IMG/VR virus record: IMGVR_UViG_3300028920_000034
Span: 1-64,000 of that record
DNA from: a virus
DNA length: 64,000 nucleotides
Reading direction: 5' to 3' (one strand)
Shown: positions 1 to 12,231 of the stretch, piece after piece
Position numbering within the stretch: the stretch's first letter is position 1
How the letters are laid out: each line of letters opens with the position of its first letter
Position numbers and translations under genes: made by a program
Notes under the pieces: model-generated
What the model was told of the DNA's origin: nothing
The model's database searches: none
What the model saw: the letters and a program-made list of their open reading frames with translations, nothing else

Positions 1-126
1 CTCCATCCCAGCCGGAAGAACCACATCGCCATCCTGGATCACCGGCTCCCGCTGGCGAAGCCAGTAGCACAGGTGGACCACCAGGCCGCCCAGCACCATA
101 CCGATGAACAGGCACGCCACGCTCAC
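1..126 (-). CDS. partial small membrane protein (runs off window edge)
   Basis: GTG at 126 overlaps the TGA of the upstream gene; translates VSVACLFIGMVLGGLVVHLCYWLRQREP..., with a hydrophobic N-terminus. Confidence 0.55.
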   Translation of the reverse strand, partial: MSVACLFIGMVLGGLVVHLCYWLRQREPVIQDGDVVLPAGME

Positions 127-410
127 CTGCCCATCCTCATCGCCGCATCGTCACGCGACCACAAAAGCCAGAGCATCACCATGATGGGGTCCGCCGGGAT
201 CGTGTCCATATCCGACAAGATCATCGCATTCATGCTGGTGTAGTGTGCCCCCTCGGAGCCGAACCTAGCGATGTACGTCCGGCCCGGACCGTTCGGGCAC
301 GTGTAGTAGTCGATCCACTTCCCAGGCGCCATCTCCACGGACCCGAGGAACGCACACGCCTCGCAGTCATGGCTGTGGTACGGAACCTCGCTGTGCTCGA
401 AGCCAAACAT
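123..410 (-). CDS. hypothetical phage protein with HDCxxCxFLGS motif
   Basis: GGAGG just upstream of ATG 410; tight packing with neighbours. Confidence 0.7.
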   Translation of the reverse strand: MFGFEHSEVPYHSHDCEACAFLGSVEMAPGKWIDYYTCPNGPGRTYIARFGSEGAHYTSMNAMILSDMDTIPADPIMVMLWLLWSRDDAAMRMGR

Positions 411-411
411 G

Positions 412-597
412 CTACGCCTCCACTTCATAGGTGGCCATGAACGCCGCCTCTTCCCACTCCGACTTGTAGTTCTGCTTGGACTTCACCCGGATGTGAACCC
501 TGTTCTTGTCCAGTGGAACCTCGCCCAAGCGGAGCCCGATGTGATCCAACACCAGCTTGCGGAGCTCGCGTTCATCGATCTCAATTTTCACCTTCAT
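412..597 (-). CDS. hypothetical protein
   Basis: 61-aa ORF with GGAGG RBS and protein-like composition. Confidence 0.7.
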   Translation of the reverse strand: MKVKIEIDERELRKLVLDHIGLRLGEVPLDKNRVHIRVKSKQNYKSEWEEAAFMATYEVEA

Positions 598-606
598 CGT
601 GCCCTC

Positions 607-1338
607 CTACTTGGGGAACATCTGGTTGGCCACGATGGTCCCGCTTGCCGTCATCTGGAGACAGCCTTCACCGCGCTGGGATTGAATCCACAGAAGCCCC
701 CGGCGCCTGAGCATCCGGATGGCCCGCTCGCAGGTATGGCGGCTCATGTAGTGCTCGAGCTCTGCCGTGAGCTGGCTCTGCTTCACCTCCATCCTGGCCG
801 GCGCCCCGGGCATCGACATGCGAAGCACGTTCCACAGCACAAGCCGCTCCCGGTTGGTGAGGTGCCCGAGGAGCTCGGCCCAGAACGGACTGTCCTCCGG
901 TGGGAGCTCGCCGGCCCTCCGCGCGCCTGGCGGGGGCCCCAGTTGCTCGGCCTTGATCCGCTCCCAGTCCCCGGGGCCCCTGGCGTCCTCATGGAATGCG
1001 TCTGGGTTGGCCTTTGCGAACTCGGCCTCCCACACCTTGTGATCATCTTCGGACAGCCGGAACAGCCGATCATTGTCCGGGGGCAACGGCTCAGGCGCCT
1101 GGCGCCCCATCAGCTCGCGGAGAGCCACCACCAGGTCGTCCAGCTCGAAGGCAGAGGTACAGCACCCCGCCTCGCAGAGCTGGGCCACCAGGGCCCGCTG
1201 GTCAGCCTGGTAGGTCACCGGATAGACGCACTCGCCCACGTCGTCCTCTTGCTCCCCTTCGGGGAACCGTGTCTCCTCGAGGTGGTCATCCCACCAGTTG
1301 AGGAACCGGGTGATCTGTCGCTCCAGATCATCCCTCAC
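607..1338 (-). CDS. protein with C-terminal winged-helix DNA-binding domain
   Basis: GTGA overlap start; C-terminal LTNRERLVLW...QSQLTAEL..MSRHTCERAIRMLRRRGLL wHTH pattern. Confidence 0.65.
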   Translation of the reverse strand: MRDDLERQITRFLNWWDDHLEETRFPEGEQEDDVGECVYPVTYQADQRALVAQLCEAGCCTSAFELDDLVVALRELMGRQAPEPLPPDNDRLFRLSEDDHKVWEAEFAKANPDAFHEDARGPGDWERIKAEQLGPPPGARRAGELPPEDSPFWAELLGHLTNRERLVLWNVLRMSMPGAPARMEVKQSQLTAELEHYMSRHTCERAIRMLRRRGLLWIQSQRGEGCLQMTASGTIVANQMFPK

Positions 1339-1676
1339 GCCATCACCTCCACCACAGCGGAGCGATCCCCGACGATGCGCCCCTCGTCCCACGCCGCCAC
1401 GAAGCGAATCGTCTGGCCGGTGGGGAGCTCCCACTCGAGCCGGCGCCGCCGGGTGGGTGAGCCGAGCCCGCGCTCCACCAAGATCCCCTCGAGCATCGGG
1501 GCCACGTGCTCCAGCCACTGGTAGCGAGGCACCGCCACCAGGACACCTGGCTCCCCGAGCTCCAATGCGCTCGCCACGGCGTGGCACTGGGCGAACGTCT
1601 TTCCGCACCCCCGGCGCCAGGTCTCGCCGCTCACCACCGCGTGCAGCCGTTCCAGGTCTGTTTTCGTTTCTTGCAT
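1335..1676 (-). CDS. small P-loop protein resembling the N-terminal half of a terminase large-subunit ATPase
   Basis: RRGCGKT Walker A, then VLVAVP strand and GQTIRFV...RIVG; ends before a complete Walker B. Confidence 0.55.
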   Translation of the reverse strand: MQETKTDLERLHAVVSGETWRRGCGKTFAQCHAVASALELGEPGVLVAVPRYQWLEHVAPMLEGILVERGLGSPTRRRRLEWELPTGQTIRFVAAWDEGRIVGDRSAVVEVMA

Positions 1677-1680
1677 CCGA

Positions 1681-1751
1681 ACACCCTCTTGACTCTTATT
1701 CCCCTACAGAGGGAGATAAGGTTAATTAAGAAGAAGCAACACCCGTGCCAA
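1681..1751 (-). promoter_or_regulatory. conserved ~70-bp element copy 1: sigma54-type promoter + hairpin (sense to genes)
   Basis: minus strand TTGGCACG-GGTG-TTGCT-TCTTCTTAATTAACCTTATCTCCC...GAATAAGAGTCAAGAGGGTGT; its GAGGG lies just upstream of ATG 1676. Confidence 0.75.
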
Positions 1752-1754
1752 GTC

Positions 1755-1979
1755 TCAACCGATGCGCCGGTAGAACTGGCGCAACGCGCTCCAGGGCACC
1801 TGGAGCTTCGGGCCGATCACGTCGTCCAGGTCTTCCCGGGCCACCGTGGTCTCGAGCCCGGAGAGCACCATCACGATCTGGATCCGCCGGGGCCACGCGC
1901 ACTGGTCGCTCGGCCAGCCCTCGAGGTACTGGGCACGGAGCTGCCACACCTGCCCGTGTCGAATCTGCGCTTGGGTCAT
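1755..1979 (-). CDS. hypothetical protein
   Basis: 74-aa ORF filling the gap in a co-oriented run. Confidence 0.55.
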   Translation of the reverse strand: MTQAQIRHGQVWQLRAQYLEGWPSDQCAWPRRIQIVMVLSGLETTVAREDLDDVIGPKLQVPWSALRQFYRRIG

Positions 1980-1988
1980 TGAAAGCCA

Positions 1989-2180
1989 TCACTTACGCAG
2001 CATCCAGGTGGACGGAACACCGTGAGACCAAGTGATTCTCTTGACGTGCCCCTGGGCAGGACGGTCCACCTTGACTCCCACCGCGCGGACTCGCTTGCCG
2101 TCCACCTCGTAGACCACGGCCAACCGCTGCCGCGTGGGATTCCAGTAGACCTGCCCAGGTTTGGCACCCCGCTCAGGCAT
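1989..2180 (-). CDS. hypothetical protein
   Basis: probable start MPERGAKPGQVYWN, overlapping the stop of the upstream gene. Confidence 0.55.
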   Translation of the reverse strand: MPERGAKPGQVYWNPTRQRLAVVYEVDGKRVRAVGVKVDRPAQGHVKRITWSHGVPSTWMLRK

Positions 2181-2364
2181 CCCTTCCGTTGGCCTCCGGG
2201 AAACGGTTGGACCACCAGCGATCACCTGCCTCTTCGGCCTTGTCCAGCCAATCCTGTAGGGCCTCATCGATCATCGCCTGAATCGACACGCGCCGCTTGA
2301 AGTTGAGCACCCGGAGCCGCTCATGCGTCTCACTGGTTACGTGTGTTGCCTTACGGTCAGCCAT
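2173..2364 (-). CDS. ribbon-helix-helix (CopG/Arc-like) DNA-binding protein
   Basis: KATHVTSETHERLRVLNFKRRVSIQAMIDEALQDWL strand-helix-helix pattern; GAGGAGG RBS. Confidence 0.7.
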   Translation of the reverse strand: MADRKATHVTSETHERLRVLNFKRRVSIQAMIDEALQDWLDKAEEAGDRWWSNRFPEANGRDA

Positions 2365-2385
2365 GTTGCCTCCTCTAGCCGTAGA

Positions 2386-2414
2386 ACGCTATACCGGTTT
2401 ACAGGTAGAGTCAA
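2386..2414 (-). promoter_or_regulatory. sigma70-type promoter
   Basis: TTGACT-17 nt-TAGCGT upstream of the RHH gene. Confidence 0.6.
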
Positions 2415-2562
2415 CCTGCTTCGGGCGCCACCAGGTCCACCTGGTACGCCCATGGATGCGCGTCCGGCTGCCAAAGGTCCAACCGTCCCGGACGAGCTCC
2501 ATCTGCTCATCGAAGTCCAGCTCACCCTCTACCGTCTTGATCTCTCGCTCACCATTACTCAT
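2389..2562 (-). CDS. small hypothetical protein immediately after the pentamer array
   Basis: AAGGAG (end of array tract 3) 6 nt before ATG; MSNGEREIKTVEGELDFDEQMELVRDGW... Confidence 0.6.
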   Translation of the reverse strand: MSNGEREIKTVEGELDFDEQMELVRDGWTFGSRTRIHGRTRWTWWRPKQVDSTCKPV

Positions 2563-2567
2563 TGATA

Positions 2568-3083
2568 GCTCCTTGCCTTGCCATGCCCTGCCTTGCCTGG
2601 CCGCGCCTAGCCTCGCCCAGCCGCGCCCCGCGTTGCCGGGCCACGCCACAACCCCGAGCCGGCGCCAGTGAGCCCGCACTCGGGATGCTACCTTTCCGCA
2701 GCTCCTTGCCTTGCCCAGCCACGCATCGCCGCGCCTTGCCGCGCCATGCAGCGCCTTGCCGCGCCCAGCTCTGCCGTGCCCTGCAAAGCCACGCTTCGCG
2801 CTGCTTTGCCGGTCCCTGCCCAGCCCGACCATGCCGCGCCCAGCCCTGCCGCACCTCGCAGAGCCTGTCCTCGCCACGCCGTGCTTGGCCACAACCCCGA
2901 GCCGGCGCCAGTGAGCCCGCACTCGGGATGCTACCTTTCCGCAGCTCCTTGCCTTGCCCAGCCACGCATCGCCGCGCCTTGCCGCGCCATGCAGCGCATC
3001 GCCGCGCCTTGCCGCGCTACGCCATGCCCAGCATCGCCCCGCTCGGCCACGCCCTACCATGCCCTGCCTGTCCCAGCCGTGCT
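2568..3083 (-). ncRNA. array of (G)G(C)-NN pentamer tracts with structured linkers; candidate guide RNAs of the adjacent RAMP/Cas7-like protein
   Basis: three tracts of 27 (3083-2949), 37 (2890-2706) and 15 (2647-2573) in-register pentamers, second base always G; each ends GGCAA GGCAA GGAGC; identical 58-nt linkers at 2948-2891 and 2705-2648. Confidence 0.8.
2645..2997. repeat. exact 110-bp direct repeat within the array (2645-2754 = 2888-2997)
   Basis: base-by-base identity at offset 243, covering the linker plus the 3' part of tracts 1 and 2. Confidence 0.9.
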
Positions 3084-3092
3084 GTAGGGCTG

Positions 3093-3710
3093 CTACTTCC
3101 ACTCGCTCACCCGAAACTTGCCGTAGACACCCCGGAAGGTCCCCAGGCCGATGGCCACACCACCCTCTTCAAATAGGTTCTTGATCTCCTGTTCCTTGAT
3201 CTCGCGGTTCTGGAAAATCCAGAGGGTAAAGCTCAGGCTCCACGGAAGCGGGAGCACCGGGCGCTCCTTGGGATTCGGAATACCTTTCTCGAGCCTGGCC
3301 ACCCGGCGATCCAGGTAGATTCCAGAGGTTGGGTCTCGCTCCTTGTCCTGGTCAATGTCACCCATCTGAATCGGGTCCCCGTTCCGGCAAAATGGGATCA
3401 TTTCCGGTGACTCCTCCGGCCCCTGAATCATCGTGAAGCTCAGGCACGCATTCGCAATCTTCTTGTACTTGCGAGCGTCCCTGAGCCTCTTGGGGGCAGA
3501 GTTGGTGTTGTGGCTGGACAAGAACGAAATGATGTTTGAAGTCGGAAGCGCCAGCGTCCCGGTGCCAGGGATGAGGTACACTTTCTGGTTCCACATCAGC
3601 TTCGTGTCGTTGTCCCCCGCGTAGCGGTCGAACATGATCGGGGCTATCCCCTCCAGTTTCACCCTCCGCGTTACTTCTGCCATCGCTGTCAGTGATTCTG
3701 TCGCCTGCAT
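3093..3710 (-). CDS. stand-alone RAMP/Cas7-like RNA-binding protein
   Basis: N-terminal VKLEGIAPIMF strand, LALPTSNIISFL, RPVLPLPWSLSFTL and C-terminal Gly-rich loop GGVAIGLGTFRGVYGKFRV, typical of RAMP (Cas7/Csm3-like) folds; no other cas gene nearby. Confidence 0.75.
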   Translation of the reverse strand: MQATESLTAMAEVTRRVKLEGIAPIMFDRYAGDNDTKLMWNQKVYLIPGTGTLALPTSNIISFLSSHNTNSAPKRLRDARKYKKIANACLSFTMIQGPEESPEMIPFCRNGDPIQMGDIDQDKERDPTSGIYLDRRVARLEKGIPNPKERPVLPLPWSLSFTLWIFQNREIKEQEIKNLFEEGGVAIGLGTFRGVYGKFRVSEWK

Positions 3711-3771
3711 TTCGTTTCTCCCTCATGGTTCCTTGCCTTGTTTGTTCGGCCAGCCCATCCAGCCGAATCGT

Positions 3772-4647
3772 CTACAGCCCCTCGGATGCGCTCCGAAGGG
3801 TCTCCTTGATCTCATTCTCCTGGTCGATGATCTCGTTCATGGTGTCCATGTCCAGCCGGGCCCAGATAGCGCCGTTGATGATGGCCCGGAGCTCACGCGG
3901 CGGAAGCGCGTCCACCTCCCAGCTCTCGCGGCCGTACCTGGCGATGAACGCGCTGGCGCGCGAGTCGGACAGCTTGGCCGGATTCGGTGGAAGCTGATGC
4001 TTCTGCACCTGGTCGATGTTGAGGGCCACCTTGACCACCTCCACCTGGGTGCCGAACAGGTCCATGCGGTCCTGAATGTCCCGCACCATATCCTCGCCGC
4101 TCGGGTCTAGGTCCCCGAGGTACAAGATAGTGGCGTCGTCGCACCCGAGGTTGTCCATCCGATAGCTGATGCGCTTGGCGCTCTCGTACATGGCGCTCTG
4201 GGAGCTGTAGCCCCGGTTGACCATCAGCACGATGTGGCACTCCTTGGAGATAGGCTCGAGCACCCCGGCCAGGGCGTCCTTTTCCACCCACAGCTCCACG
4301 TAGTGGCGCTGCCCCTGGAGCCGCGGAAGCCGGAATGATGCCAGGGCGGACTCCATCAGCGAGCTCGCGGAGTCCCACTCGGGCGCCCGCTTGGCCTGGC
4401 GCACGCGGTCCTCAATCGCATCCCAGTCGATCTGCCCCGCCAGGCGCGCCTTGCTCACCAGGTTGCCCAGGTTCTTGTAGGACCGCTCCTTGTTCGGGAT
4501 GATGTTGGCGCTCACAAGCTGGTAGTAGAGCTGCCGGAGTGTAAGCCGAAGGCCGTCCTCCATGTAGGCTTCCACCACCCGGTTGCAGTGCTCCATCAGC
4601 TCCATGGACTTCGGGGTGAACCCCGCTTCGATGAATCGCTCCATCAT
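3772..4647 (-). CDS. topoisomerase VI subunit A/Spo11-like TOPRIM protein
   Basis: LTLRQLYYQL (5Y-CAP-like Tyr), VELWVEKDAL, NRGYSS, ILYLGDLDPSGEDM TOPRIM motifs. Confidence 0.8.
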   Translation of the reverse strand: MMERFIEAGFTPKSMELMEHCNRVVEAYMEDGLRLTLRQLYYQLVSANIIPNKERSYKNLGNLVSKARLAGQIDWDAIEDRVRQAKRAPEWDSASSLMESALASFRLPRLQGQRHYVELWVEKDALAGVLEPISKECHIVLMVNRGYSSQSAMYESAKRISYRMDNLGCDDATILYLGDLDPSGEDMVRDIQDRMDLFGTQVEVVKVALNIDQVQKHQLPPNPAKLSDSRASAFIARYGRESWEVDALPPRELRAIINGAIWARLDMDTMNEIIDQENEIKETLRSASEGL

Positions 4648-5297
4648 GACTTGACTCCCATCATGGCCAGCTCGAGGGCCAGCCGCTGCATCAGCTCCTC
4701 CCGGTCGGTCGGGAGCACCACTCGAAGCCCACGGTGCTCGGCCTCGGTGAGCATGAGCCAGAAGATCGCCGGCACCTTGTCCTGCCAGGTGTAGTCCAGG
4801 ACCGCATCGAACTCACGGTCAAAGGCATCCTGGGCCATTTCCCCCCGAGGTGCTGGCCCCATCACGTAGCACGCCGTGAGGGCCGCCAGGTTCTTCGTGG
4901 CATGGCGCTGTAAGAACAAGATGGTGTTCACCAGGTGGTTGTCCCCCATTTCGCTCACACGCACGCGCTCGCCCATGCGAGTGACCCACACGTCATCCGC
5001 CTCCTGGAGCTGGCGCTCCTCGAGCTCGTTCCGGAGGTAGCACACCAGGTCTTCAAGATCCTCGAGCTCCCAGTTGCGCTTGTGCTGACTGGCGCCGTAG
5101 CTGAAACACGGGGAGAACGTCCGGAGCACCTTACGCCGGTTGAACCAGCACACGGACACGCTCCTAGCCGCTCCACGCACCACCAGATGGGGCACGCCGC
5201 GCCTGCTCACGCGACGGGTCACGCGCATCCTGGGCTCGGACGTGAGCCGCTCGGCCACCTGGGTGAGCTCTGGCCACCAGTCGGTGCCACTACTCAT
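4644..5297 (-). CDS. hypothetical protein
   Basis: GGAGG RBS; contains WVTRMGERVRVSEMGDNHLVN, a motif type seen in small phage proteins. Confidence 0.65.
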   Translation of the reverse strand: MSSGTDWWPELTQVAERLTSEPRMRVTRRVSRRGVPHLVVRGAARSVSVCWFNRRKVLRTFSPCFSYGASQHKRNWELEDLEDLVCYLRNELEERQLQEADDVWVTRMGERVRVSEMGDNHLVNTILFLQRHATKNLAALTACYVMGPAPRGEMAQDAFDREFDAVLDYTWQDKVPAIFWLMLTEAEHRGLRVVLPTDREELMQRLALELAMMGVKS

Positions 5298-5529
5298 AGG
5301 CCGCCTCCTCCTGGCGCTTGCGCTCCTGGTAAGCATCGTCGTCCACCACCACCTCCACGTGCTCCTCTGCCCACGCCGCCCCGGCCCGGAGGGTCATTGC
5401 CAGAGCGAGGTACTCGGGCTCCCGCATCGCCAGGGACCCGATGTTCGCCAGCGTGCCACCGGACCCGGCGAACAACACCGCGTGAACGTGAACGCCGTTG
5501 TAGCTGTTGACCTGGAGCTTGAACCTCAT
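5290..5529 (-). CDS. hypothetical protein
   Basis: ATGA overlap; MRFKLQVNSYNGVHVHAVLF. Confidence 0.65.
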   Translation of the reverse strand: MRFKLQVNSYNGVHVHAVLFAGSGGTLANIGSLAMREPEYLALAMTLRAGAAWAEEHVEVVVDDDAYQERKRQEEAAYE

Positions 5530-5858
5530 TGCGCGTCCCTCCGGGGCCACCCGGTGGCGATGGCCAGCCACTCCTCGAGCTCGGCCTCGGTGAGCCCCAC
5601 GGTCTCGCCCTCGCCGTCCACCGCGGAAATGAAGCACGGCCCATGGATCACGATGGGGCCGAGCTGGCCGGGGAGCACCCGGTTCGGGGCATGGGTGAAG
5701 CGCCCCTCTTCGTTGCACCACAGCACAATGTTCCGGTGTCCGGTGGCCAGCATCACCGATTCGATGTAGCCGTCCACGAAGGTCTGCATGGCCTTCAGGT
5801 TGTCGTCCAGGTCCTCCGCCTTGGCGTGCTCGCCAGGCCGCATTGCGATGATCTGCAT
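5526..5858 (-). CDS. DUF3846-like protein
   Basis: LKAMQTFVDGYIE...LWCNEEG...PNR...IHGPCFI...GETVGLTE signature. Confidence 0.75.
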   Translation of the reverse strand: MQIIAMRPGEHAKAEDLDDNLKAMQTFVDGYIESVMLATGHRNIVLWCNEEGRFTHAPNRVLPGQLGPIVIHGPCFISAVDGEGETVGLTEAELEEWLAIATGWPRRDAQ

Positions 5859-5859
5859 G

Positions 5860-6075
5860 TTACAGCTTCCCCTGTCGCTTGCGCTCCTGGAGACAATTCC
5901 AGCACAGGTCCTCCCCGTTGGCTCTGGACACACTCCACAGGAGCTTGGTTTTCAAATCGGTCCTCATCTGGTGAGCTTCTTTTCTCCCGCGCCCGCACGT
6001 CTGGCCGTAGGACGGGTGACTGAAGCCACAGCCGTCGCAAACGATCTTGACTTCGATGCTCACGCGCGCCTCCAT
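5860..6075 (-). CDS. small zinc-finger protein
   Basis: CDGCG ... DLCWNC. Confidence 0.65.
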   Translation of the reverse strand: MEARVSIEVKIVCDGCGFSHPSYGQTCGRGRKEAHQMRTDLKTKLLWSVSRANGEDLCWNCLQERKRQGKL

Positions 6076-6581
6076 CGCTCCACCAGGGCCTTCCCGGCCT
6101 CGGTGATGAAGTAAATGGTCCAGTCGCCGCTGTCGGTGATCGCGGTGTCGCCTTTTGCCACCAGCCCGAGCTCCTCGAGCTGGGTACACGCCCCGTGGTT
6201 CTCCGGGTCCATCAGGATTGCCACCCCGCTCCCCGAAGTCCGGTCCAGGCTTCGCAGGATGCGCTTCTGGAGCTCCGCGTACTCCCTGGTGAGGGCATCG
6301 GCCACCCGAGCCGCAAAGTGAGCCGGGCGCTCCCCGCGGACACCAGCCGCAAACGCCTCCTCCTCGGTGGGCACACGGTGGCGATGCTGCCACGCCTCGG
6401 GGAGAGCCTTCCCGGCGCACAACCACTCGTCCAGGGCCTCCCATGCGATGTAGAGATCGTCGCAGTGACAAGAGTAGTCGTCACCGCTGCACAGATCGTA
6501 GCCGCCTGCCTTCCCACCGCAATACGGGTGAAGCGGCTTCATCAGCTCGCGGATGGTTTCCAGTGCCTTGTCAGAGTCCAT
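6060..6581 (-). CDS. hypothetical protein with C-terminal winged-helix-like segment
   Basis: GGAGGAG RBS; ALDEWLCAGKALPEAW and LEELGLV...YFITEAGK motifs. Confidence 0.65.
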   Translation of the reverse strand: MDSDKALETIRELMKPLHPYCGGKAGGYDLCSGDDYSCHCDDLYIAWEALDEWLCAGKALPEAWQHRHRVPTEEEAFAAGVRGERPAHFAARVADALTREYAELQKRILRSLDRTSGSGVAILMDPENHGACTQLEELGLVAKGDTAITDSGDWTIYFITEAGKALVERWRRA

Positions 6582-6592
6582 TCTCTCCTCCC

Positions 6593-7924
6593 TTACTTGC
6601 TCACGTAGTAGTCCTTTGGAGGTGGCTCTGGGGCCCCCTCGTTGACCTTCGGAATCCCGCCGCGATAGTGAGGCTTAATGAACACCTGGCGCCTGAATTC
6701 GCGCCCTGGCCCGTAGGGCTGATTTCTCCAATGCCCTCTCACTACATGGCGAGCTCGCATCGAAACATCACCACCGGAGTCACCCAGGCGAGATTCGAAC
6801 TTGACACCAACGATGTAGATTGCACCCTTTTGCTTGCGCTCTATTGCGCGCTCGAGCTTACGGCGTTTCCTGGATCCATCCTGGTGCCTCTTCGCTCTGG
6901 CTGCCATCCTGTTGATTTCATCCTGGCAATCCAGTCGCACGTCATCCTGCATGTTGGTGGTGTAAAGGGCAAAATTGGCCACCAACGAAAGCAACCGCGC
7001 GTGCTTTTCATGAAACCCCTTTTTGCCACGATTCCGACCAGCAGCGCCCATGGACTCACTAACAACCGCACGGACGTGTTCGCTCACTGGGCTCCTATTG
7101 CGAGGCATGTGAAATGCGACTGGAAAAATTGGAGAGTCATACCCACAAACAATGCTTGTTGCAATGCTTGTTGCCGCCGCCTCCTCGCCAAACACCAGCC
7201 CTTCACTGACCACCATAGCCTCCAGAGACCCCATATTGCCAAAATGAACTTCATCGCCAGGAAACAAAATCACGCACTGTGGAAAAGGTAACCGCACATC
7301 GAACGAAGGCACATTCACATCCGTATGCCAAAACGATTCGATCAGCGATGACGAAATGTAGAACCTTGGGACAACACCGGCTTGAGCCTTGATCATTGCT
7401 TCATAATACGTTTTCCACCCAAAGGCAGAATCATGGATAGAAATACCAAGGGCGTCTTTTTCCCCATCCGCAACCATTTCCCTCGCGCGCCTAGACTCCC
7501 AGTGGTTCGCTATCCACGCCAATGAATAGGCAATCTTCATGAAACAGTCCGCCTCCATATCCGGAGTACCCTCAATCAAGGACGGATACTTCGCCGCAGC
7601 GGACTTGCAAAACCTGGTAGTCACTTTCAGGTTCGCGTGATTGTGCTTAATTCCACTCCACGCGCCAATTATGGTTTTTTTCCATTGTCTCCACGCACGC
7701 CGACGAATAGATGCTTCAACCTCAGTATCGCCCTCATACATAAGCTGGATAAACCTCAAAGCCACCTTGCCGGACAACAGTAGATCTTGCGCTCCATGTT
7801 CTTGCGCCCAAGCAATAAAAACACCCAGGTACGCAATGGGCTCTTGGTAATTGGAAACACCAGGAAGAGAAACAGCCGCCTCTTTGTAGGCCATTTCTTT
7901 GTACCTATCATTGTCACCCGCCAT
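6593..7924 (-). CDS. hypothetical protein, low-GC body, C-terminal HxVRGHWRxQ domain
   Basis: RARHVVRGHWRNQPYGPGREFRRQVFIKPHYRG; start coupled to upstream TGA. Confidence 0.75.
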   Translation of the reverse strand: MAGDNDRYKEMAYKEAAVSLPGVSNYQEPIAYLGVFIAWAQEHGAQDLLLSGKVALRFIQLMYEGDTEVEASIRRRAWRQWKKTIIGAWSGIKHNHANLKVTTRFCKSAAAKYPSLIEGTPDMEADCFMKIAYSLAWIANHWESRRAREMVADGEKDALGISIHDSAFGWKTYYEAMIKAQAGVVPRFYISSSLIESFWHTDVNVPSFDVRLPFPQCVILFPGDEVHFGNMGSLEAMVVSEGLVFGEEAAATSIATSIVCGYDSPIFPVAFHMPRNRSPVSEHVRAVVSESMGAAGRNRGKKGFHEKHARLLSLVANFALYTTNMQDDVRLDCQDEINRMAARAKRHQDGSRKRRKLERAIERKQKGAIYIVGVKFESRLGDSGGDVSMRARHVVRGHWRNQPYGPGREFRRQVFIKPHYRGGIPKVNEGAPEPPPKDYYVSK

Positions 7925-8100
7925 CAGTCCCTCCTCACCCACACCTGGTGGATCACAATGCCCGTCAGCGCCGCCATGATGCCAGTGACCGGATCGTCTG
8001 CAATGGCCCACCAGAGCCCAGCGCCAACACCCACCACCAACGCCACGGCCAGCGTGTCCACCACCTTCCTGGACCAGTCCATGAACAGCCTATTGAACAT
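7924..8100 (-). CDS. small two-TM membrane protein (58 aa, not in ORF track)
   Basis: MFNRLFMDWSRKVVDTLAVALVVGVGAGLWWAIADDPVTGIMAALTGIVIHQVWVRRD; GAGGA RBS. Confidence 0.6.
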   Translation of the reverse strand: MFNRLFMDWSRKVVDTLAVALVVGVGAGLWWAIADDPVTGIMAALTGIVIHQVWVRRD

Positions 8101-8344
8101 CGGTCCTCACTTTCGTGCCATCGTGGTTGCGCTCCGCCAGCTTCCTGGCCGCCCGGTGGGCGAAAGCGATGGCGCACCGCTTGATACAGAAGTAGCCCAT
8201 GCCGTCCACCCCCCGGGTCAAGGGCGGGGGCTCGCGGTCCGGATAGGCCCTGGCCCACCTCGCCTGGTCCGTGGGTCCGAGAAAGTAGGGCAACGGCTTG
8301 CCGCAGTGCAGACACCTGGGTGTCGGGGTTCTTCGCTTCGCCAT
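8090..8344 (-). CDS. zinc-finger protein
   Basis: CLHCGK ... FCIKRC. Confidence 0.65.
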   Translation of the reverse strand: MAKRRTPTPRCLHCGKPLPYFLGPTDQARWARAYPDREPPPLTRGVDGMGYFCIKRCAIAFAHRAARKLAERNHDGTKVRTDVQ

Positions 8345-8346
8345 GG

Positions 8347-11058
8347 TTACCACCTCATCTCCACCTGGTTCGCCGGCCGGGACAGCACTCCGCCGCCTCC
8401 ACCCGCCGAATTGGTGTCGCCTTGGCGCTCAGGGCGCCGCTGTGCGGACTTCTTGGCCTTGGCCGTCCGCTTGGCCTTGGGCTTGCGCTCGAGCCCGTGG
8501 TGGGCCAGCCAGGCGCCCAGAAGCTCGCTCCGAATGTCCAGGCTCTCCTTGGTGGGGGCCTCGCCGTCCAGGATGCGCTGCACCACCTCGCGCTTGGATT
8601 CGATCAGCTCGCTGATGTAGTTGTCGATGGTGCCGTCCGCCACCAGGTAGCGGATGGTGACCGCTCGCTCCTGGCCGATCCGGTGGGCCCGATCCTCCGC
8701 TTGCTCCTCGGAGCTCGGGGTCCAGGCGCGCTCCACGAACATCACGTTGCTCGCCCGGGTGAGGGTGATGCCCACGCCACCGGATTCGATCCCGAGGAGC
8801 ATCACGTCCAGGTCCCCCGCCTGGAACGCCTTGACCAGCGCGCCGCGCTTGTCCGCGGAGACGTTCAGGTCGATGCGCCCCACCCGGAGGGGCTCCTGGC
8901 CGCGCTTCGTGGCCTTGCAGCCGGCCTCGAGCTCGTCCAGCACGTCCTGGTGGTGAGCGAACACCAGCACCGGCTCGCCCTGGGCGTGGTACTCGCGGAC
9001 CCACTCCACGGCCGCCTGGGCCTTCAGGCGCCCGGTCTCGTGTCGCTCCCAGGTCATCGCCGCGAGCTGGGCACCAGGCTCGGGGCTGTCCACCATGGCC
9101 TTGACCGTCTTGCGGATGGCGTTGAGCTCCTTGCGGGGCACCTCCACCTTGGTGATGGTGCGCGTCTTGGCGGGGAGCTCCTTGAGCACCTGGTCCTTGG
9201 TGCGCCGGACCATGGTGTCGCGGAGCCGGGCGGAGAGCTCCTCGGTGTTGGTGGCTCCGCCGATCTGCCACCCGAAGCGGTCGCGGTAGGCGCCGCAGTA
9301 CCGGGTAACGTACTTTTTCCAGGAGGCGTAGTCCGCCGGGCGGAGCATCTTGAGCGTGGTGTAGAACTCGACCGGCCGGTTGAGGATGGGCGTCCCGGAG
9401 AGCCCGATCACGGCCTCGGGGTTCACCTGGCTCACCAAGTCCAGCATCGCCTTGGTACGCTGGGCCTTGTAGTTTTTCAGGTAGTGACACTCATCGAAGA
9501 TCAGCGCCTTCGGGGCGAGGGCCTTGAGCTCCTCCACGCGCCGCCGGGCCAGATCGTAGGTGACCACGTAGCAGCTCGCCTTGGGGTCCAGCTTCTGCTT
9601 CCCCGTCTTGATCCGCTGCACGGTCTCCCCGGGGGCCCACTTGTTGATCTCGTCCACCCAGTTGGTGGAGACCACCGCGGGGACCACCAGCACCGCGGGG
9701 CGCGCCTCGGGATGCAGGAGGAGCCACAGGATGGCCTGGATCGTCTTGCCGAGCCCCATCTGGTCACCGATGAGGGCCCGGCCACCGGCCGCGTCCACAA
9801 AAGCCGCTCCGGCGAGCTGGTAGGGGTACGGCTTGAGCCCCTCGGGGAGCATCCCCGCCAGGCGCTCGCCCACGTCCGTGTCCACGTTGGCGTCCTCGAG
9901 GCTCGCCGCGTTGCTCAGGGCCTCGCGCTCGAGGGCCTCCTCGAGCTTCTCCTGGGCGTCGTCGGTGATCGTCACCGTGGCCGGGTCGATGCCCGAGCCC
10001 TCGCCCCAGAGGTAATCGTAGTTGTTTGCCACCAGGGCGGCGCCGATCCACCAGGCGCCCGTGGCCTTGTCCCAGCTCGCGCCCACGCGCTTGAGCCGGT
10101 CCTTGAGGGCCCCATGGTCGGGGTTGTTCCAGGGGGCGTCCAGCTCCACCTTGAGCTCCACGCGGCCGTTGGTGGTCACCAGCACCTGGCCGGGCTTGCG
10201 GAGGGGGATGAGGCCCTCCTTGGCGTCCTTGGCCACCTCGGTGAGCTTCGCGCGGGCCTTGTCGCTCACGGCCACTTTGGCCTCGGTGAACACCTGGCCC
10301 CAGATGGCCGCCAGGGTGTCCGCGGAGATCAGCCACCCGCGGTTCTCGCCGTCCCACGTGGCGCCCACGGACTTGAGCTGGTCCTTGATCACGCCGTGGG
10401 TGGCGTTGTACTTGGGGTGGTCCATCGTGACCAGGAGCCCCGTCTGGCCACCGAAGGCGCTCTGGCCCTTGTAGATGGTGTCGATGCCCACGATGCCCTT
10501 CGGGCGCCGCTCCGGGAGCTTGGCCGCATCCTGGATACTCGACCCGCACGCGATTGCGGCCACCGCGTTGCGCTGGCGCCGGAGCCGGGCGAGGAGCCCC
10601 TTACGGGTCTTCTTGCCCTCCTCCACGGCCTCGAGGATCACCTTGTTGGCGTCCCGGTCCTGGCCGCCGAGCTGGGTGTCCATGTACTTCACCAGGCGCC
10701 TGGCCATCTCCCAGGTGCCTTCACGGGGGCACCCCAGGTCCAGGTAACGCCGCGCGAAGCCAGCGTCCCCAGCATTGAACCCCATGTGGTCCTTGGGCCA
10801 CTTCGGGTCGGTGAGCTCCATCAGGTGCGAGGTGGACTCTTCGATGGCCGGCCGGAACTGCGCCTCGTCCTCGAGGATGGGCGGAAGGCACTTGGTGTGG
10901 GCGCGGCGGAACACCTTGAGGCTCATGCCCAGGGCGTTGAGGGTGGCGAGCTGCGCCGGCTGGAGCCAGACGATCTCCTCGCCGGCCGTGATGGCCTTGC
11001 GGCAGAGCGTACACTTGCCGTCGCTGTGGGCCTCGGTGATCTGGTAGTCGGTTGTCAT
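8347..11058 (-). CDS. SNF2-family (SMARCAL1/HARP-like) helicase/annealing ATPase
   Basis: PYQ, DQMGLGKT, DECH, LSGTPILNRP, RRTK, GVGITLT, QAEDRAHRIGQ; N-terminal Zn ribbon and two KDxLKxVGAxWD repeats. Confidence 0.9.
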   Translation of the reverse strand: MTTDYQITEAHSDGKCTLCRKAITAGEEIVWLQPAQLATLNALGMSLKVFRRAHTKCLPPILEDEAQFRPAIEESTSHLMELTDPKWPKDHMGFNAGDAGFARRYLDLGCPREGTWEMARRLVKYMDTQLGGQDRDANKVILEAVEEGKKTRKGLLARLRRQRNAVAAIACGSSIQDAAKLPERRPKGIVGIDTIYKGQSAFGGQTGLLVTMDHPKYNATHGVIKDQLKSVGATWDGENRGWLISADTLAAIWGQVFTEAKVAVSDKARAKLTEVAKDAKEGLIPLRKPGQVLVTTNGRVELKVELDAPWNNPDHGALKDRLKRVGASWDKATGAWWIGAALVANNYDYLWGEGSGIDPATVTITDDAQEKLEEALEREALSNAASLEDANVDTDVGERLAGMLPEGLKPYPYQLAGAAFVDAAGGRALIGDQMGLGKTIQAILWLLLHPEARPAVLVVPAVVSTNWVDEINKWAPGETVQRIKTGKQKLDPKASCYVVTYDLARRRVEELKALAPKALIFDECHYLKNYKAQRTKAMLDLVSQVNPEAVIGLSGTPILNRPVEFYTTLKMLRPADYASWKKYVTRYCGAYRDRFGWQIGGATNTEELSARLRDTMVRRTKDQVLKELPAKTRTITKVEVPRKELNAIRKTVKAMVDSPEPGAQLAAMTWERHETGRLKAQAAVEWVREYHAQGEPVLVFAHHQDVLDELEAGCKATKRGQEPLRVGRIDLNVSADKRGALVKAFQAGDLDVMLLGIESGGVGITLTRASNVMFVERAWTPSSEEQAEDRAHRIGQERAVTIRYLVADGTIDNYISELIESKREVVQRILDGEAPTKESLDIRSELLGAWLAHHGLERKPKAKRTAKAKKSAQRRPERQGDTNSAGGGGGVLSRPANQVEMRW

Positions 11059-11070
11059 CCGGTCCTCCTG

Positions 11071-12231
11071 CTAGGCAGCCAGCGCCAGCGTGAGCTGGAC
11101 GGGCTTGGTGCGGGTAGTGGTGTTGAGGTTGAGCTCGCGCTCGGGGGCGGGCTGGCCGCGGAGCGCCAGGTTTATTGCATCGCGCTTGCGCCAGGCCACC
11201 GCGCCCGTCTCGAGCACCCAGGTGCGGTAGTAGCGGTCGAGCACCTGGTCCGTGTAGTCGTTGCCGTTGTCCTCGAGCCAGTCCACCAGGTTGCCCTCGG
11301 GGGTCTCGCCGGCCACCAGGGTGAGCTCCTCGGTGAGCTCGGTGCGCTGGGCCTCGGTGAGCTCGGCCACCCACTCGGAAGCATCAGCGAAGATCTGGTC
11401 CGTGTAGTCGTGGCCGCCGGAGGCGCTCCACATGCTCTCCTCGAGCTCGCTGTTCACGGCGTCGAAAGCAGCCGTGAGCACCCGGGGGCCCTTGGTGCCC
11501 GTGGCGGGCATCACGCGGCCGTTGGAGCGGCCCACCAGCGAGGCGATGAGCACCGAGTCACAGAAGATGGTGGTGGAGGGGCTGGCGGTCTGCACGGCCT
11601 TCACCAGCTTCTCCCAGCCGGGGCTCTGGGGGCCGCGCCCGAGGAGGTGGACGGCGTGGGGTTGCGCGGTCTCGAGGTAGTCCACCAGCTCCGCCTGGGT
11701 GGTGGCGTCCTTTTTCATCGGGATGGCGGGGAGCCAGTCCGAGAAGCCGAGCGCCTGGGCAGCCGCCTCACCGAACTGGGCCATGGTGAGCTCGCCTTTC
11801 TGGTGGGGCACCAGGACGTTCGCACCGAGCACCCGGCACGCCAGCATGTAGTGGCGGTAGCGGGCCATCCGCTCGAGGGTCTCGGACTGGAAGGCCACCT
11901 TGTCGGGAGCCACCACGTAGAGCTGCGAACCGAGGTGCGCGGCGAGCTCCACGTAGGTCTCGAGGCGCTCGATCCACTGGCTGTGGGTGATCGGCTTGGC
12001 AACGCGAGGAGGGGCATCCTTGGGGAACTCGATCTCGGAGAACGCGCCGGAGTCCACGAACACCTTGACGCCCGTTCCGGCGAGCGCCTGGAGGGCCGCC
12101 ATGGACGCGCCGTTCACGCGATCCACCGCCACGCCCACGTTCATGCCGCAGTCGGCCAGACCGGCAATCTCGCCCTCGTGATTCGAGCCGGAAGCGAAGT
12201 AGCTGATTTCGTTGCGCGTCGTGTTGTCCAT
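11071..12231 (-). CDS. tRNA-guanine transglycosylase/DpdA-like TIM-barrel protein
   Basis: VFVDSGAFSE, APDKV, VHLLG, FCDS motifs of the TGT/DpdA superfamily. Confidence 0.65.
   Translation of the reverse strand: MDNTTRNEISYFASGSNHEGEIAGLADCGMNVGVAVDRVNGASMAALQALAGTGVKVFVDSGAFSEIEFPKDAPPRVAKPITHSQWIERLETYVELAAHLGSQLYVVAPDKVAFQSETLERMARYRHYMLACRVLGANVLVPHQKGELTMAQFGEAAAQALGFSDWLPAIPMKKDATTQAELVDYLETAQPHAVHLLGRGPQSPGWEKLVKAVQTASPSTTIFCDSVLIASLVGRSNGRVMPATGTKGPRVLTAAFDAVNSELEESMWSASGGHDYTDQIFADASEWVAELTEAQRTELTEELTLVAGETPEGNLVDWLEDNGNDYTDQVLDRYYRTWVLETGAVAWRKRDAINLALRGQPAPERELNLNTTTRTKPVQLTLALAA

What the first reader, a model, noticed from the sequence alone, without database searches (positions are those of the whole stretch)
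2648..2948. Identical 58-nt structured linker and fixed GGCAA-GGCAA-GGAGC cap divide the array into three units
Seen: all three tracts end GGCAA GGCAA GGAGC. Tracts 1 and 2 continue into the same linker, with two hairpins: GCTGC-GGAAAG-GTAGC and ATCCCGAG...CTCGGGGT. Inference: the linker plays the role of a CRISPR repeat (processing site or filament cap), releasing three separate RNAs of different guide length.
Basis: partly seen in the sequence, partly recalled or inferred. Interest (0 to 1): 0.8.

Follow-up and report, generated by a model that had tools for sequence, protein, structure and literature searches.

The report
Phage VIPR guide-RNA array with linkers
The five-base repeats and the two identical 58-base linkers belong to the guide-RNA array of a phage VIPR system, a CRISPR-like RNA-guided DNA silencer first described in 2026 preprints, so the feature is real but of a known kind.

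Summary
On the minus strand, just after a 205-aa gene (3093-3710), lie three tracts of GGY-NN pentamers: 3078-2944, 2890-2701 and 2647-2568. Each ends GGCAAGGCAAGGAGC.

The locus is a VIPR system (bioRxiv 10.64898/2026.04.26.720920 and .720927). The 205-aa protein has a Cas7/Csm3-like RAMP fold, and its only sequence relative in the PDB is the SUSP1 Vipr protein. In 81 related viral loci, GGYNN tracts lie on the gene's strand 168 times and on the other strand 3 times.

It is not shown for this locus, because no RNA data could be obtained.

The locus differs from the published type II systems in five ways:
- The tail is two hairpins, not a pseudoknot.
- The last tract has no tail; its cap serves as the ribosome-binding site of a 57-aa ORF.
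- Two tracts have 27 and 38 units, against the published 9-16.
- No accessory gene is conserved next to vipr.
- No target was found.

Across relatives the cap is the conserved element; linker sequences are specific to each locus. This scan has already found VIPR loci in at least nine other genomes.

The parts
3093..3710 (-). vipr gene: a 205-aa protein with a single-RRM RAMP (Cas7-like) fold, a G-rich loop (GGVAIGLGTFRGVYGKF) and a thumb-like beta-hairpin (about residues 132-153, carrying invariant R139, K148, R150)
   Evidence: AlphaFold model pLDDT 82.8, pTM 0.80. The listed Foldseek matches are all CRISPR RAMP-complex chains, e.g. Csm chains, Cmr1 and Cas7-11. VIA-align gives Z 10.0 to an Enterococcus italicus Csm-complex chain (9g9a_D), with CRISPR effector-complex subunits filling the top 34 rows. 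The profile's only PDB sequence hit is 36pp 'SUSP1 Vipr protein', E 4.6e-6. hhalign to SUSP1 Vipr gives 95.5% probability over the G-loop region. No Pfam or PADLOC hit; phrog_4652, function unknown.
3727..3743 (-). Cap-like remnant AACAAGGCAAGGAACC in the vipr leader, with no pentamer tract in front of it
   Evidence: Read directly from the sequence. In most relatives a full vrRNA tract ending GGCAAGGCAAGG occupies this position upstream of vipr.
2944..3078 (-). vrRNA tract 1: 27 GGY-NN units, the last being the cap unit GGAGC; contains an internal duplication of about 30 nt
2891..2943 (-). Linker copy 1 (53 nt; 58 nt with the GGAGC cap unit at 2948-2944). Hairpin 1, GCUGC-GGAAAG-GUAGC, starts inside the cap. 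Hairpin 2, AUCCCGAG...CUCGGGGU, follows.
2701..2890 (-). vrRNA tract 2: 38 units, made of 17 units, 3 degenerate units, 17 units and the GGAGC cap unit. Its last 10 units are identical to those of tract 1.
2648..2700 (-). Linker copy 2, identical to copy 1
2568..2647 (-). vrRNA tract 3: 16 units, the cleanest GGY tract (88%). It ends in the same cap but has no linker.
2389..2562 (-). 57-aa ORF. Its ATG (2562-2560) lies 5 nt after the cap of tract 3, so the AAGGAG of the cap is placed as its ribosome-binding site. The ORF has no homologue in 82 related loci.

Best explanation
The region is the downstream guide-RNA (vrRNA) array of a phage-borne VIPR system.

Shown here:
- The 205-aa gene at 3093-3710 encodes a Vipr-family RAMP protein.
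- The GGY-NN pentamer tracts that follow it on the same strand are a conserved companion of this gene family.
- The tracts are separated by a locus-specific structured linker of about 58 nt.
- No promoter- or terminator-like site was detected inside the array.

Taken from the published work on SUSP1 and P. fulva VIPR:
- One Vipr protomer binds each pentamer. It buries the GGY and presents the NN dinucleotide.
- The NN dinucleotides pair with double-stranded DNA while skipping every third target base.
- A structured 3' tail caps the filament.
- Binding silences genes of competing mobile elements.

Inferred for this locus:
- vipr and the array are transcribed as one RNA.
- The conserved GGCAAGGCAAGG(A)GC cap marks the 3' end of each guide tract.
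- The two-hairpin linker is the 3' tail or processing module that separates vrRNA 1 from vrRNA 2 and vrRNA 2 from vrRNA 3.
- The last vrRNA ends without a tail at the ribosome-binding site of the next ORF.
For: - Fold: the protein has a RAMP fold.
- Homology: SUSP1 Vipr is its only PDB sequence relative, and hhalign gives 95.5% probability. The G-loop aromatic-Arg pair, F192/R193, aligns with W/R of SUSP1.
- Tracts: the pentamer tracts are the only ones on the 153-kb viral contig.
- Association: in 81 loci holding a homologue (35-70% identity), tracts of 8 or more units number 168 on the gene's strand and 3 on the other. Every locus has at least one.
- Cap: tract 3' ends across the family read GGC(A/G)AGGC(A/G)AGG. 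Other viral arrays carry the same GGAGC/GGAAC cap.
- Linkers: inter-tract linkers cluster at 55-67 nt, and 55% have fold z below -2.
- Hairpin 1: it is kept with compensatory pairs in 8 variants.
- Transcription: no promoter or terminator consensus was found inside the array.
- Self-targeting: no self-target on the phage's own contig under the 1-nt-skip rule, as the preprint reports for real systems.
- Literature.
Against: - No RNA evidence exists for this locus.
- No target was found for any guide. Six exact-pattern guide queries were run (eight collection scans: six of viral contigs, one of genomes, one of metagenomes). They gave one sequence, found in two collections, which is probably a chance match.
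- Tracts of 27 and 38 units exceed the published 9-16.
- Tract 3 lacks a tail.
- No conserved accessory (vap) gene lies beside vipr.
- The two linker copies are identical because of a recent 110-nt duplication, so their identity says little about constraint.
- The linker sequence has no homologue in the relatives examined. Only the hairpin-1 motif and the overall size and structure recur.
- The nearest Vipr homologue is only 73% identical, so no within-lineage comparison was possible.
Confidence: 0.85

Rival explanations
1. The linker is only a processing or insulating spacer and is not part of the mature ribonucleoprotein. It would be cut out by host RNases or by Vipr, or it would act as a 5' leader of the downstream vrRNA. 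On this reading the real 3' handle is the GGCAAGGCAAGG cap. This rival concerns the linker's role only and sits inside the VIPR assignment.
For: - Terminal tracts, here and in many relatives, end at the cap with no structured tail, directly before a ribosome-binding site and start codon.
- Some arrays have linkers of only 5-25 nt after the same cap.
- Linker sequences differ between loci while the cap is conserved.
- Other clades place a tRNA-like acceptor/T-arm minihelix between tracts, which suggests cutting by host tRNA-processing enzymes. The preprint reports hammerhead ribozymes in this position for some types.
Against: - In SUSP1 the structured 3' tail stays on the mature vrRNA and is seen capping the filament by cryo-EM (10.64898/2026.04.26.720927).
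- Hairpin 1 begins inside the cap unit (GGAGC), so it is physically continuous with the last bound repeat.
- With three tracts and two linkers, the layout cannot tell a 3' tail from a 5' leader.
Confidence: 0.3
2. There are no separate units. The roughly 510-nt region gives one long RNA coated by Vipr, or the array is decaying. The repeated linker would then be a by-product of a recent 110-nt duplication and have no function of its own.
For: - The exact 110-nt duplication includes 10 guide units.
- A further duplication of about 30 nt lies inside tract 1.
- Many units are degenerate: 30% of units in tracts 1 and 2 are not strict GGY.
- No targets were found.
- Relatives hold uninterrupted tracts of up to 53 units.
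Against: - Structured linkers of about 60 nt between tracts are the rule in related loci, and they fold better than shuffled sequence.
- Hairpin 1 shows compensatory substitutions.
- The conserved cap precedes each linker.
Confidence: 0.1
3. The tracts are not RNA guides. They would instead be protein-coding repeats (ORFs of 237 and 136 aa run through the region) or a DNA-level element such as iterons, a G-quadruplex-forming stretch or a packaging site.
For: - Long ORFs are open through the region in several frames on both strands.
- The region lies next to a replication-type TOPRIM gene.
Against: - A strict 5-nt period cannot be a codon period. Frames are open only because the tracts are GC-rich.
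- Tract lengths in relatives vary by amounts that are not multiples of 3, and TAG-containing units occur.
- The strict strand bias relative to vipr (168 against 3) fits a transcript.
- None of the window's neighbouring genes, the TOPRIM gene included, has a homologue in the related vipr loci, and 78 phage records carry a TOPRIM homologue against a single record with a Vipr match.
- Published small-RNA sequencing and cryo-EM show that such tracts are RNA bound by Vipr.
Confidence: 0.02

Closest known systems
Type II VIPR systems of Escherichia phage SUSP1 and a Pseudomonas fulva prophage (bioRxiv 10.64898/2026.04.26.720920; structures in 10.64898/2026.04.26.720927; PDB 36pp)
   Same: - A small single-RRM RAMP protein with a G-loop.
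- GGY-NN pentamer tracts flanking the gene on its own strand.
- Several vrRNAs in tandem downstream, each tract followed by a conserved structured element of 40-60 nt.
- Carried by a phage.
- No self-target on the phage's own contig.
   Different: - Protein similarity is detectable only over the C-terminal 52 residues or so.
- The repeat is GGC, against mostly GGT in SUSP1.
- The tail is two hairpins, not an H-type pseudoknot.
- The last tract has no tail.
- Tracts have 27 and 38 units against 9-16.
- No vap1-like neighbour gene.
- No conserved leader repeated before each vrRNA, unlike the SUSP1 array.
- Targets are unknown.
Other VIPR array architectures named in the same preprint: staggered arrays, hammerhead-ribozyme-interspersed arrays and single-vrRNA systems (figs S18-S20, types I, III, V)
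   Same: - Tandem vrRNAs that must be separated from a common transcript.
- Relatives fetched here show very short linkers after the same GGAGC/GGAAC cap (L204, L205), which resemble the staggered layout.
   Different: - No Rfam ribozyme, or any other Rfam family, matches the window's linker at E up to 1.
- The linker is 58 nt, not a 1-nt overlap.
- The VIPR type of this locus could not be assigned, because the type definitions are in figures and data files not held as text.
Class 1 CRISPR crRNAs and their repeats (Cas7 backbone filaments; Cas6 cutting at repeat hairpins)
   Same: - A RAMP protein polymerises on a guide RNA.
- A conserved structured element separates variable guide segments in a multi-guide transcript.
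   Different: - No CRISPR repeat-spacer array and no cas1, cas2 or other cas genes.
- The guide is a 5-nt periodic scaffold in which only 2 of 5 bases carry information.
- No acquisition machinery. The array seems to have grown here by plain duplication (110 nt and about 30 nt).

Membership tests
VIPR (Viral Interference Programmable Repeat) system | Vipr protein: a small (about 20 kDa) RAMP with a single RRM core, a glycine-rich loop and a thumb | tested here: met
   205 aa; model pLDDT 82.8. The listed Foldseek and VIA-align matches are almost all CRISPR RAMP-complex chains, best Z 10.0 to an Enterococcus italicus Csm-complex chain. The G-loop GLGTFRGxxGKF is invariant or nearly so in 20 homologues.
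VIPR (Viral Interference Programmable Repeat) system | Sequence homology to an experimentally characterised Vipr (SUSP1) | tested here: met
   The profile of 20 homologues against the PDB gives a single hit, 36pp 'SUSP1 Vipr protein', E 4.6e-6. hhalign gives 95.5% probability, E 1.4e-8. Both alignments cover only the C-terminal beta-alpha-G-loop-beta region of about 52 residues.
VIPR (Viral Interference Programmable Repeat) system | vrRNA genes: tandem YNNGG (GGY/NN) pentamers next to vipr, with GGY conserved and NN variable | tested here: met
   81 units in three tracts, 68-88% strict GGY against 5.8% background. They are the only such tracts on the 153-kb contig. In 81 related loci there are 168 tracts on the gene's strand and 3 on the other.
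VIPR (Viral Interference Programmable Repeat) system | 9-16 repeats per vrRNA (as published for type II) | tested here: inconclusive
   Tract 3 has 16 units; tracts 1 and 2 have 27 and 38. Mature RNA ends are unknown, so long tracts could be trimmed or could hold more than one vrRNA. Relatives also have tracts of up to 53 units.
VIPR (Viral Interference Programmable Repeat) system | An invariable structured 3' tail after each repeat tract | tested here: inconclusive
   Two of the three tracts are followed by the identical two-hairpin linker. Tract 3 is followed directly by a start codon. Related loci show the same mix of tailed and untailed tracts. No pseudoknot was identified.
VIPR (Viral Interference Programmable Repeat) system | An accessory gene (vap) in an operon with vipr; typical, though stand-alone vipr genes are also reported | tested here: inconclusive
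   None of 11 neighbouring ORFs of the window has a homologue in 81 related loci. The commonest real neighbour family occurs in 13 of 82 loci. The upstream TOPRIM-like gene has homologues in 78 phage records, against a single record with a Vipr match.
VIPR (Viral Interference Programmable Repeat) system | Guides match DNA of competing mobile elements under the 1-nt-skip (xNN) rule, with no self-target | tested here: inconclusive
   No self-target on the phage's own contig. Six exact sub-guide patterns were scanned against viral contigs and one of them also against genomes and metagenomes. The only result was one sequence inside a Dehalococcoidia seryl-tRNA synthetase gene, with the skip at codon position 2 and no match in the flanking units. 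The collection scans allow no mismatches, so real targets at 80-95% match would be missed.
VIPR (Viral Interference Programmable Repeat) system | vrRNAs are expressed and bound by Vipr | not testable with these tools
Hammerhead-ribozyme-interspersed vrRNA arrays (VIPR types I and V) | A self-cleaving ribozyme between adjacent vrRNAs | tested here: not met
   Rfam cmscan of window 1-12000 at E up to 1 gave no match of any family. The linker lacks the CUGANGA/GAAA hammerhead core, read directly from the sequence.
CRISPR-Cas | A repeat-spacer array with repeats of 23-50 nt and spacers of similar length, together with cas genes | tested here: not met
   No PADLOC or Pfam Cas family matched any of the 10 neighbouring proteins. 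The array consists of 5-nt units with two 58-nt linkers.

The most novel reading that the evidence does not exclude
In this vap-less VIPR clade the conserved GGCAAGGCAAGG(A)GC cap would be the true 3' handle. Because it contains AAGGAG, it would also serve as the ribosome-binding site of whatever gene follows: here the 57-aa ORF, in relatives often vipr itself. Vipr filament assembly on a terminal, tail-less vrRNA would then occlude that site and couple guide loading to translational control, including autoregulation of vipr. The roughly 60-nt hairpin linkers would be dispensable processing modules, cut by Vipr in a Cas6-like way or by host RNases. Tracts of 27-38 units would give filaments that read 80-115 bp of target.
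Probability: 0.15. Interest if true: 0.5.

Novelty: new member of a known kind. Interest (0 to 1): 0.28.

Why it matters
VIPR is a very recently described class of RNA-guided DNA recognition, known from 2026 preprints. This locus adds a divergent, high-GC member carried by a 153-kb phage, from a large branch of the family (at least 2,199 protein clusters, all annotated 'hypothetical').

It shows array features that the characterised type II systems lack:
- two-hairpin linkers in place of pseudoknot tails;
- terminal vrRNAs with no tail, whose cap doubles as a ribosome-binding site;
- very long tracts;
- no accessory gene;
- visible growth of the array by duplication.

How multi-vrRNA transcripts with such linkers are matured did not turn up in term searches of the discovery and SUSP1-satellite preprints. 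A set of natural linker variants (hairpin, tRNA-like, very short) would help answer that. The basic nature of the element is already explained.

Tried and rejected
- Pfam, PADLOC and Rfam gave nothing for the RAMP gene or the array. PHROGs gave only a family of unknown function.
- Target search on held sequence. Under skip rules 0-3, the phage's own contig gave nothing above shuffled guides, apart from the trivial self-match at skip 3. The same test with 141 guides from all loci against 0.85 Mb of held sequence showed no enrichment for skip 1. The database is too small to be informative.
- Target search in collections. Exact xNN patterns for tract 3 (13 and 10 units), tract 2b/1 (10 units), tract 2a (10 units) and the 5' part of tract 1 (10 units) found nothing in viral contigs. 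An 11-unit pattern found one identical sequence in a Dehalococcoidia MAG and in a metagenome contig. I reject it as a target for these reasons:
  - it lies in a housekeeping serS gene;
  - the genome is 49% GC, against 64% for the phage;
  - the skipped base falls at codon position 2;
  - the next four units do not match;
  - by my own estimate from collection size, roughly 0.07-0.2 chance hits are expected per collection.
- One viral scan was wasted. The pattern AAGGCAAGGAGCT-N6-16-AGC returned 118 coding or ribosome-binding-site chance matches and no vrRNA.
- The TOPRIM-like gene, the 57-aa ORF and the RHH gene were considered as accessory (vap) genes. None has a homologue in the related vipr loci.
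- Close relatives for a conserved-linker, variable-guide comparison do not exist in the collections. The best is 73% protein identity, and relatives at 69-71% identity carry different linkers.
- The protein-coding and DNA-iteron readings were rejected on period, strand bias and the literature.
- The VIPR type (I-VII) could not be assigned, because the defining figures and data files are not held as text.

Full report
**1. What is in the sequence**

All features are on the minus strand. A 205-aa ORF (3710-3093) is followed, 14 nt after its stop codon, by about 510 nt with a strict 5-nt period. In the register GGY-NN there are three tracts:
- T1, 3078-2944, 27 units;
- T2, 2890-2701, 38 units, interrupted by three degenerate units;
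- T3, 2647-2568, 16 units.

Strict GGY units make up 70%, 68% and 88% of these tracts, against 5.8% per position in the background. Each tract ends GGCAA GGCAA GGAGC. This 15-mer occurs three times in the window, and no shuffle of the window gave a match.

After T1 and T2 comes an identical stretch, 58 nt when counted with GGAGC (2948-2891 and 2705-2648). It is part of an exact 110-nt duplication, 2645-2754 = 2888-2997, which also copies the last ten guide units.

The energy is -29.3 kcal/mol and z is -2.44, but z is only -0.65 once flanking repeat units are included.

T3 has no linker. Its cap is followed after 5 nt by the ATG of a 57-aa ORF, so the AAGGAG inside the cap sits where a ribosome-binding site would be.

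No sigma-70-like promoter or intrinsic terminator was detected inside the array. The caveat is that the identity of the two linker copies reflects a recent duplication.

**2. What it is**

The 205-aa protein has no Pfam or PADLOC match and only a PHROG of unknown function.

A protein-based scan of viral contigs returned 80 loci whose homologues are 34-70% identical. In these loci, together with the window, tracts of 8 or more GGYNN units occur 168 times on the gene's strand and 3 times on the opposite strand. Every locus has at least one, directly upstream or downstream of the gene. On the window's own 153-kb viral contig the four tract segments here are the only ones.

An AlphaFold model built from 20 homologues is confident (pLDDT 82.8, pTM 0.80). 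Its structural neighbours are almost all chains of CRISPR RAMP effector complexes. The best Foldseek hits are Csm-complex chains. VIA-align gives Z 10.0 to an Enterococcus italicus Csm-complex chain, and CRISPR effector-complex subunits fill the top 34 rows.

A literature search for pentanucleotide repeats, phage and RAMP led to the VIPR preprints. They describe a small phage-encoded RAMP, Vipr, that polymerises on vrRNAs made of GGY/NN repeats followed by a structured 3' tail. The complex reads double-stranded DNA through the NN dinucleotides with a one-base skip and silences competing mobile elements.

Homology is direct. The profile of the 20 homologues has a single hit in the PDB sequence set, 36pp 'SUSP1 Vipr protein' (E 4.6e-6). 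hhalign against the SUSP1 gene read from KT454805 gives 95.5% probability. The aligned part is the G-loop region. There the aromatic-Arg pair aligns with F192/R193 of the window protein, which are nearly invariant and invariant in the family. In the structure paper's figure legend an aromatic residue and the adjacent arginine of the G-loop contact G2 and Y3 of the repeat; equating them with this pair is my reading, since the numbering is offset by two. SUSP1's own array shows the same grammar with GGT units and pseudoknot tails.

**3. The linker and the cap in relatives**

*The cap.* Tract 3' ends across the family read GGC(A/G)A GGC(A/G)A GG. A scan for the exact cap found further viral arrays with GGAGC or GGAAC caps. 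The cap is thus the conserved element.

*Linker size and fold.* The 44 unique inter-tract linkers in the 82 loci cluster at 55-67 nt. Of the 38 that are at least 30 nt long, 55% fold with z below -2 against mononucleotide shuffles (median -2.3). A minority are only 15-39 nt.

*Linker sequence.* It is nearly identical within an array (for example four copies in L062 and two in L022) but unrelated between loci.

*Hairpin 1.* A subset shares the window's first hairpin, which starts in the cap unit. GCU...AGC is invariant in 8 variants. Pair 4 is G-U, A-U or G-C; pair 5 is C-G or G-C; pair 6 is A-U or G-C. These are compensatory changes. Many of these linkers add a third small hairpin (GGUGG-loop-CCACC) that the window lacks.

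*Tail-less tracts.* Terminal tracts, especially those just upstream of vipr or of another gene, usually have no structured tail and run from the cap into a ribosome-binding site and start codon.

A structured linker of about 60 nt is a family habit and hairpin 1 covaries. But the linker is not obligatory for every vrRNA.

**4. Mechanism**

Shown here:
- the protein family and fold;
- the repeat grammar and its strand-specific linkage to the gene;
- the linker's size class and predicted structure;
- no promoter- or terminator-like site detected inside the array.

Taken from the preprints, for SUSP1 and P. fulva:
- one protomer binds per pentamer;
- GGY is sequestered and NN is presented;
- target DNA is read with a 1-nt skip;
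- the 3' structure caps the filament;
- binding represses transcription of rival elements.

Inferred for this locus:
- vipr and the array are co-transcribed;
- three or four vrRNAs are released, delimited by the cap and linker;
- the linker serves as 3' tail, as processing module, or as both.

Whether the linker stays on the mature RNA, and what cuts the precursor, is unknown. Term searches of the discovery and SUSP1-satellite preprints found no account of maturation for linker-type arrays. The discovery preprint mentions only hammerhead-interspersed and staggered arrays, and Rfam finds no ribozyme in the window's linker.

**5. Differences from the characterised systems**

- The tracts of 27 and 38 units exceed the published 9-16. 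Relatives reach 53.
- No accessory gene is conserved. None of the window's neighbours recurs in 81 loci, and the commonest real neighbour family is in 13 of 82 loci.
- The TOPRIM-like gene upstream is a common phage replication-module gene: 78 phage records carry a homologue, against a single record with a Vipr match.
- The array bears marks of growth by plain duplication, of 110 nt and about 30 nt.
- The vipr leader keeps only a cap-like remnant (AACAAGGCAAGGAACC, 3743-3727), where relatives have a full upstream vrRNA.

**6. Targets**

No self-target exists on the contig. Exact xNN sub-guide scans of the public collections found nothing credible. The single hit lies in a Dehalococcoidia serS gene, has the wrong codon phase, and its flanking units do not match. 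The collection scans cannot tolerate mismatches, so this says little either way.

**7. Verdict**

This is a genuine VIPR vrRNA array.

It is a new member of a known kind. This scan had already met VIPR loci in at least nine other genomes. The residual interest lies in four things: the diversity of linkers, the tail-less terminal vrRNAs whose cap overlaps a ribosome-binding site, the very long tracts, and the unanswered question of how such arrays are matured.

Noticed in passing
L062:4662-5203; L064:4607-4811; L066:1236-1440; L078:4648-4706; L061:4718-4764: In a more distant Vipr clade (about 37-41% identity) the linkers between vrRNA tracts look like a tRNA acceptor/T-arm minihelix. A 6-7-bp outer stem encloses a GGGGCG-UUCGAGC-CGCCCC or GGGUGGG-UUCGAUU-CCCGCCC hairpin with a T-loop-like 7-nt loop; in L062 the element ends ...UUGCCCA. 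This would suit cutting by host RNase P or RNase Z. ARAGORN and Rfam do not call them tRNAs.
   Followed up: partly
L025:4699-4770: A complete tRNA-Gly(TCC) gene starts 10 nt after the end of a vrRNA tract (tract end 4689). It could be a prophage attachment site next to the VIPR cassette, or a natural vrRNA-tRNA processing junction.
   Followed up: partly
window 3727-3743 (minus strand): The vipr leader carries AACAAGGCAAGGAACC, which resembles the end of a vrRNA tract but has no tract before it. Relatives have a full upstream vrRNA at this place, so it looks like the remnant of a lost upstream guide.
   Followed up: partly
window 3772-4647 (minus strand): The 291-aa TOPRIM-like protein upstream of vipr (phrog_6247, annotated 'DNA topoisomerase') has homologues of about 40% identity in 78 phage records (Pseudomonas NP1/PaMx25-like, Brevundimonas, Xanthomonas, Listeria LWP01), whereas the Vipr query matched only one phage record. 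It belongs to the replication module and is not a VIPR accessory gene.
   Followed up: yes
L054:3841-3905 and L054:4650-4765: One vrRNA tract is followed by four 15-bp direct repeats (CTAAATRACACGYAY). Another ends in 12 identical GGCAA units that decay into GACAA/AACAA pentamers. These are low-complexity expansions of the cap unit.
   Followed up: no
L204 (plus strand, about 2345-2628) and L205 (minus-strand offsets about 1742-2056 as printed): Other viral arrays use the same GGAGC/GGAAC cap but have linkers of only about 5-25 nt. They may be the 'staggered' vrRNA arrays mentioned in the preprint.
   Followed up: no
L083:2131-2162 and L084:5490-5521: An 11-unit exact xNN match to guide T3 lies inside the seryl-tRNA synthetase gene of a Dehalococcoidia MAG (UBA3088); the same sequence is in a metagenome contig. 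I judge it a chance match: the codon phase is wrong, the flanking units do not match and the GC content is unrelated.
   Followed up: yes
window 2173-2364 (minus strand): A 63-aa ribbon-helix-helix, antitoxin-like protein (PF20605, E 5e-4, below the curated cut-off) lies two genes downstream of the array. It is not conserved beside vipr elsewhere.
   Followed up: partly
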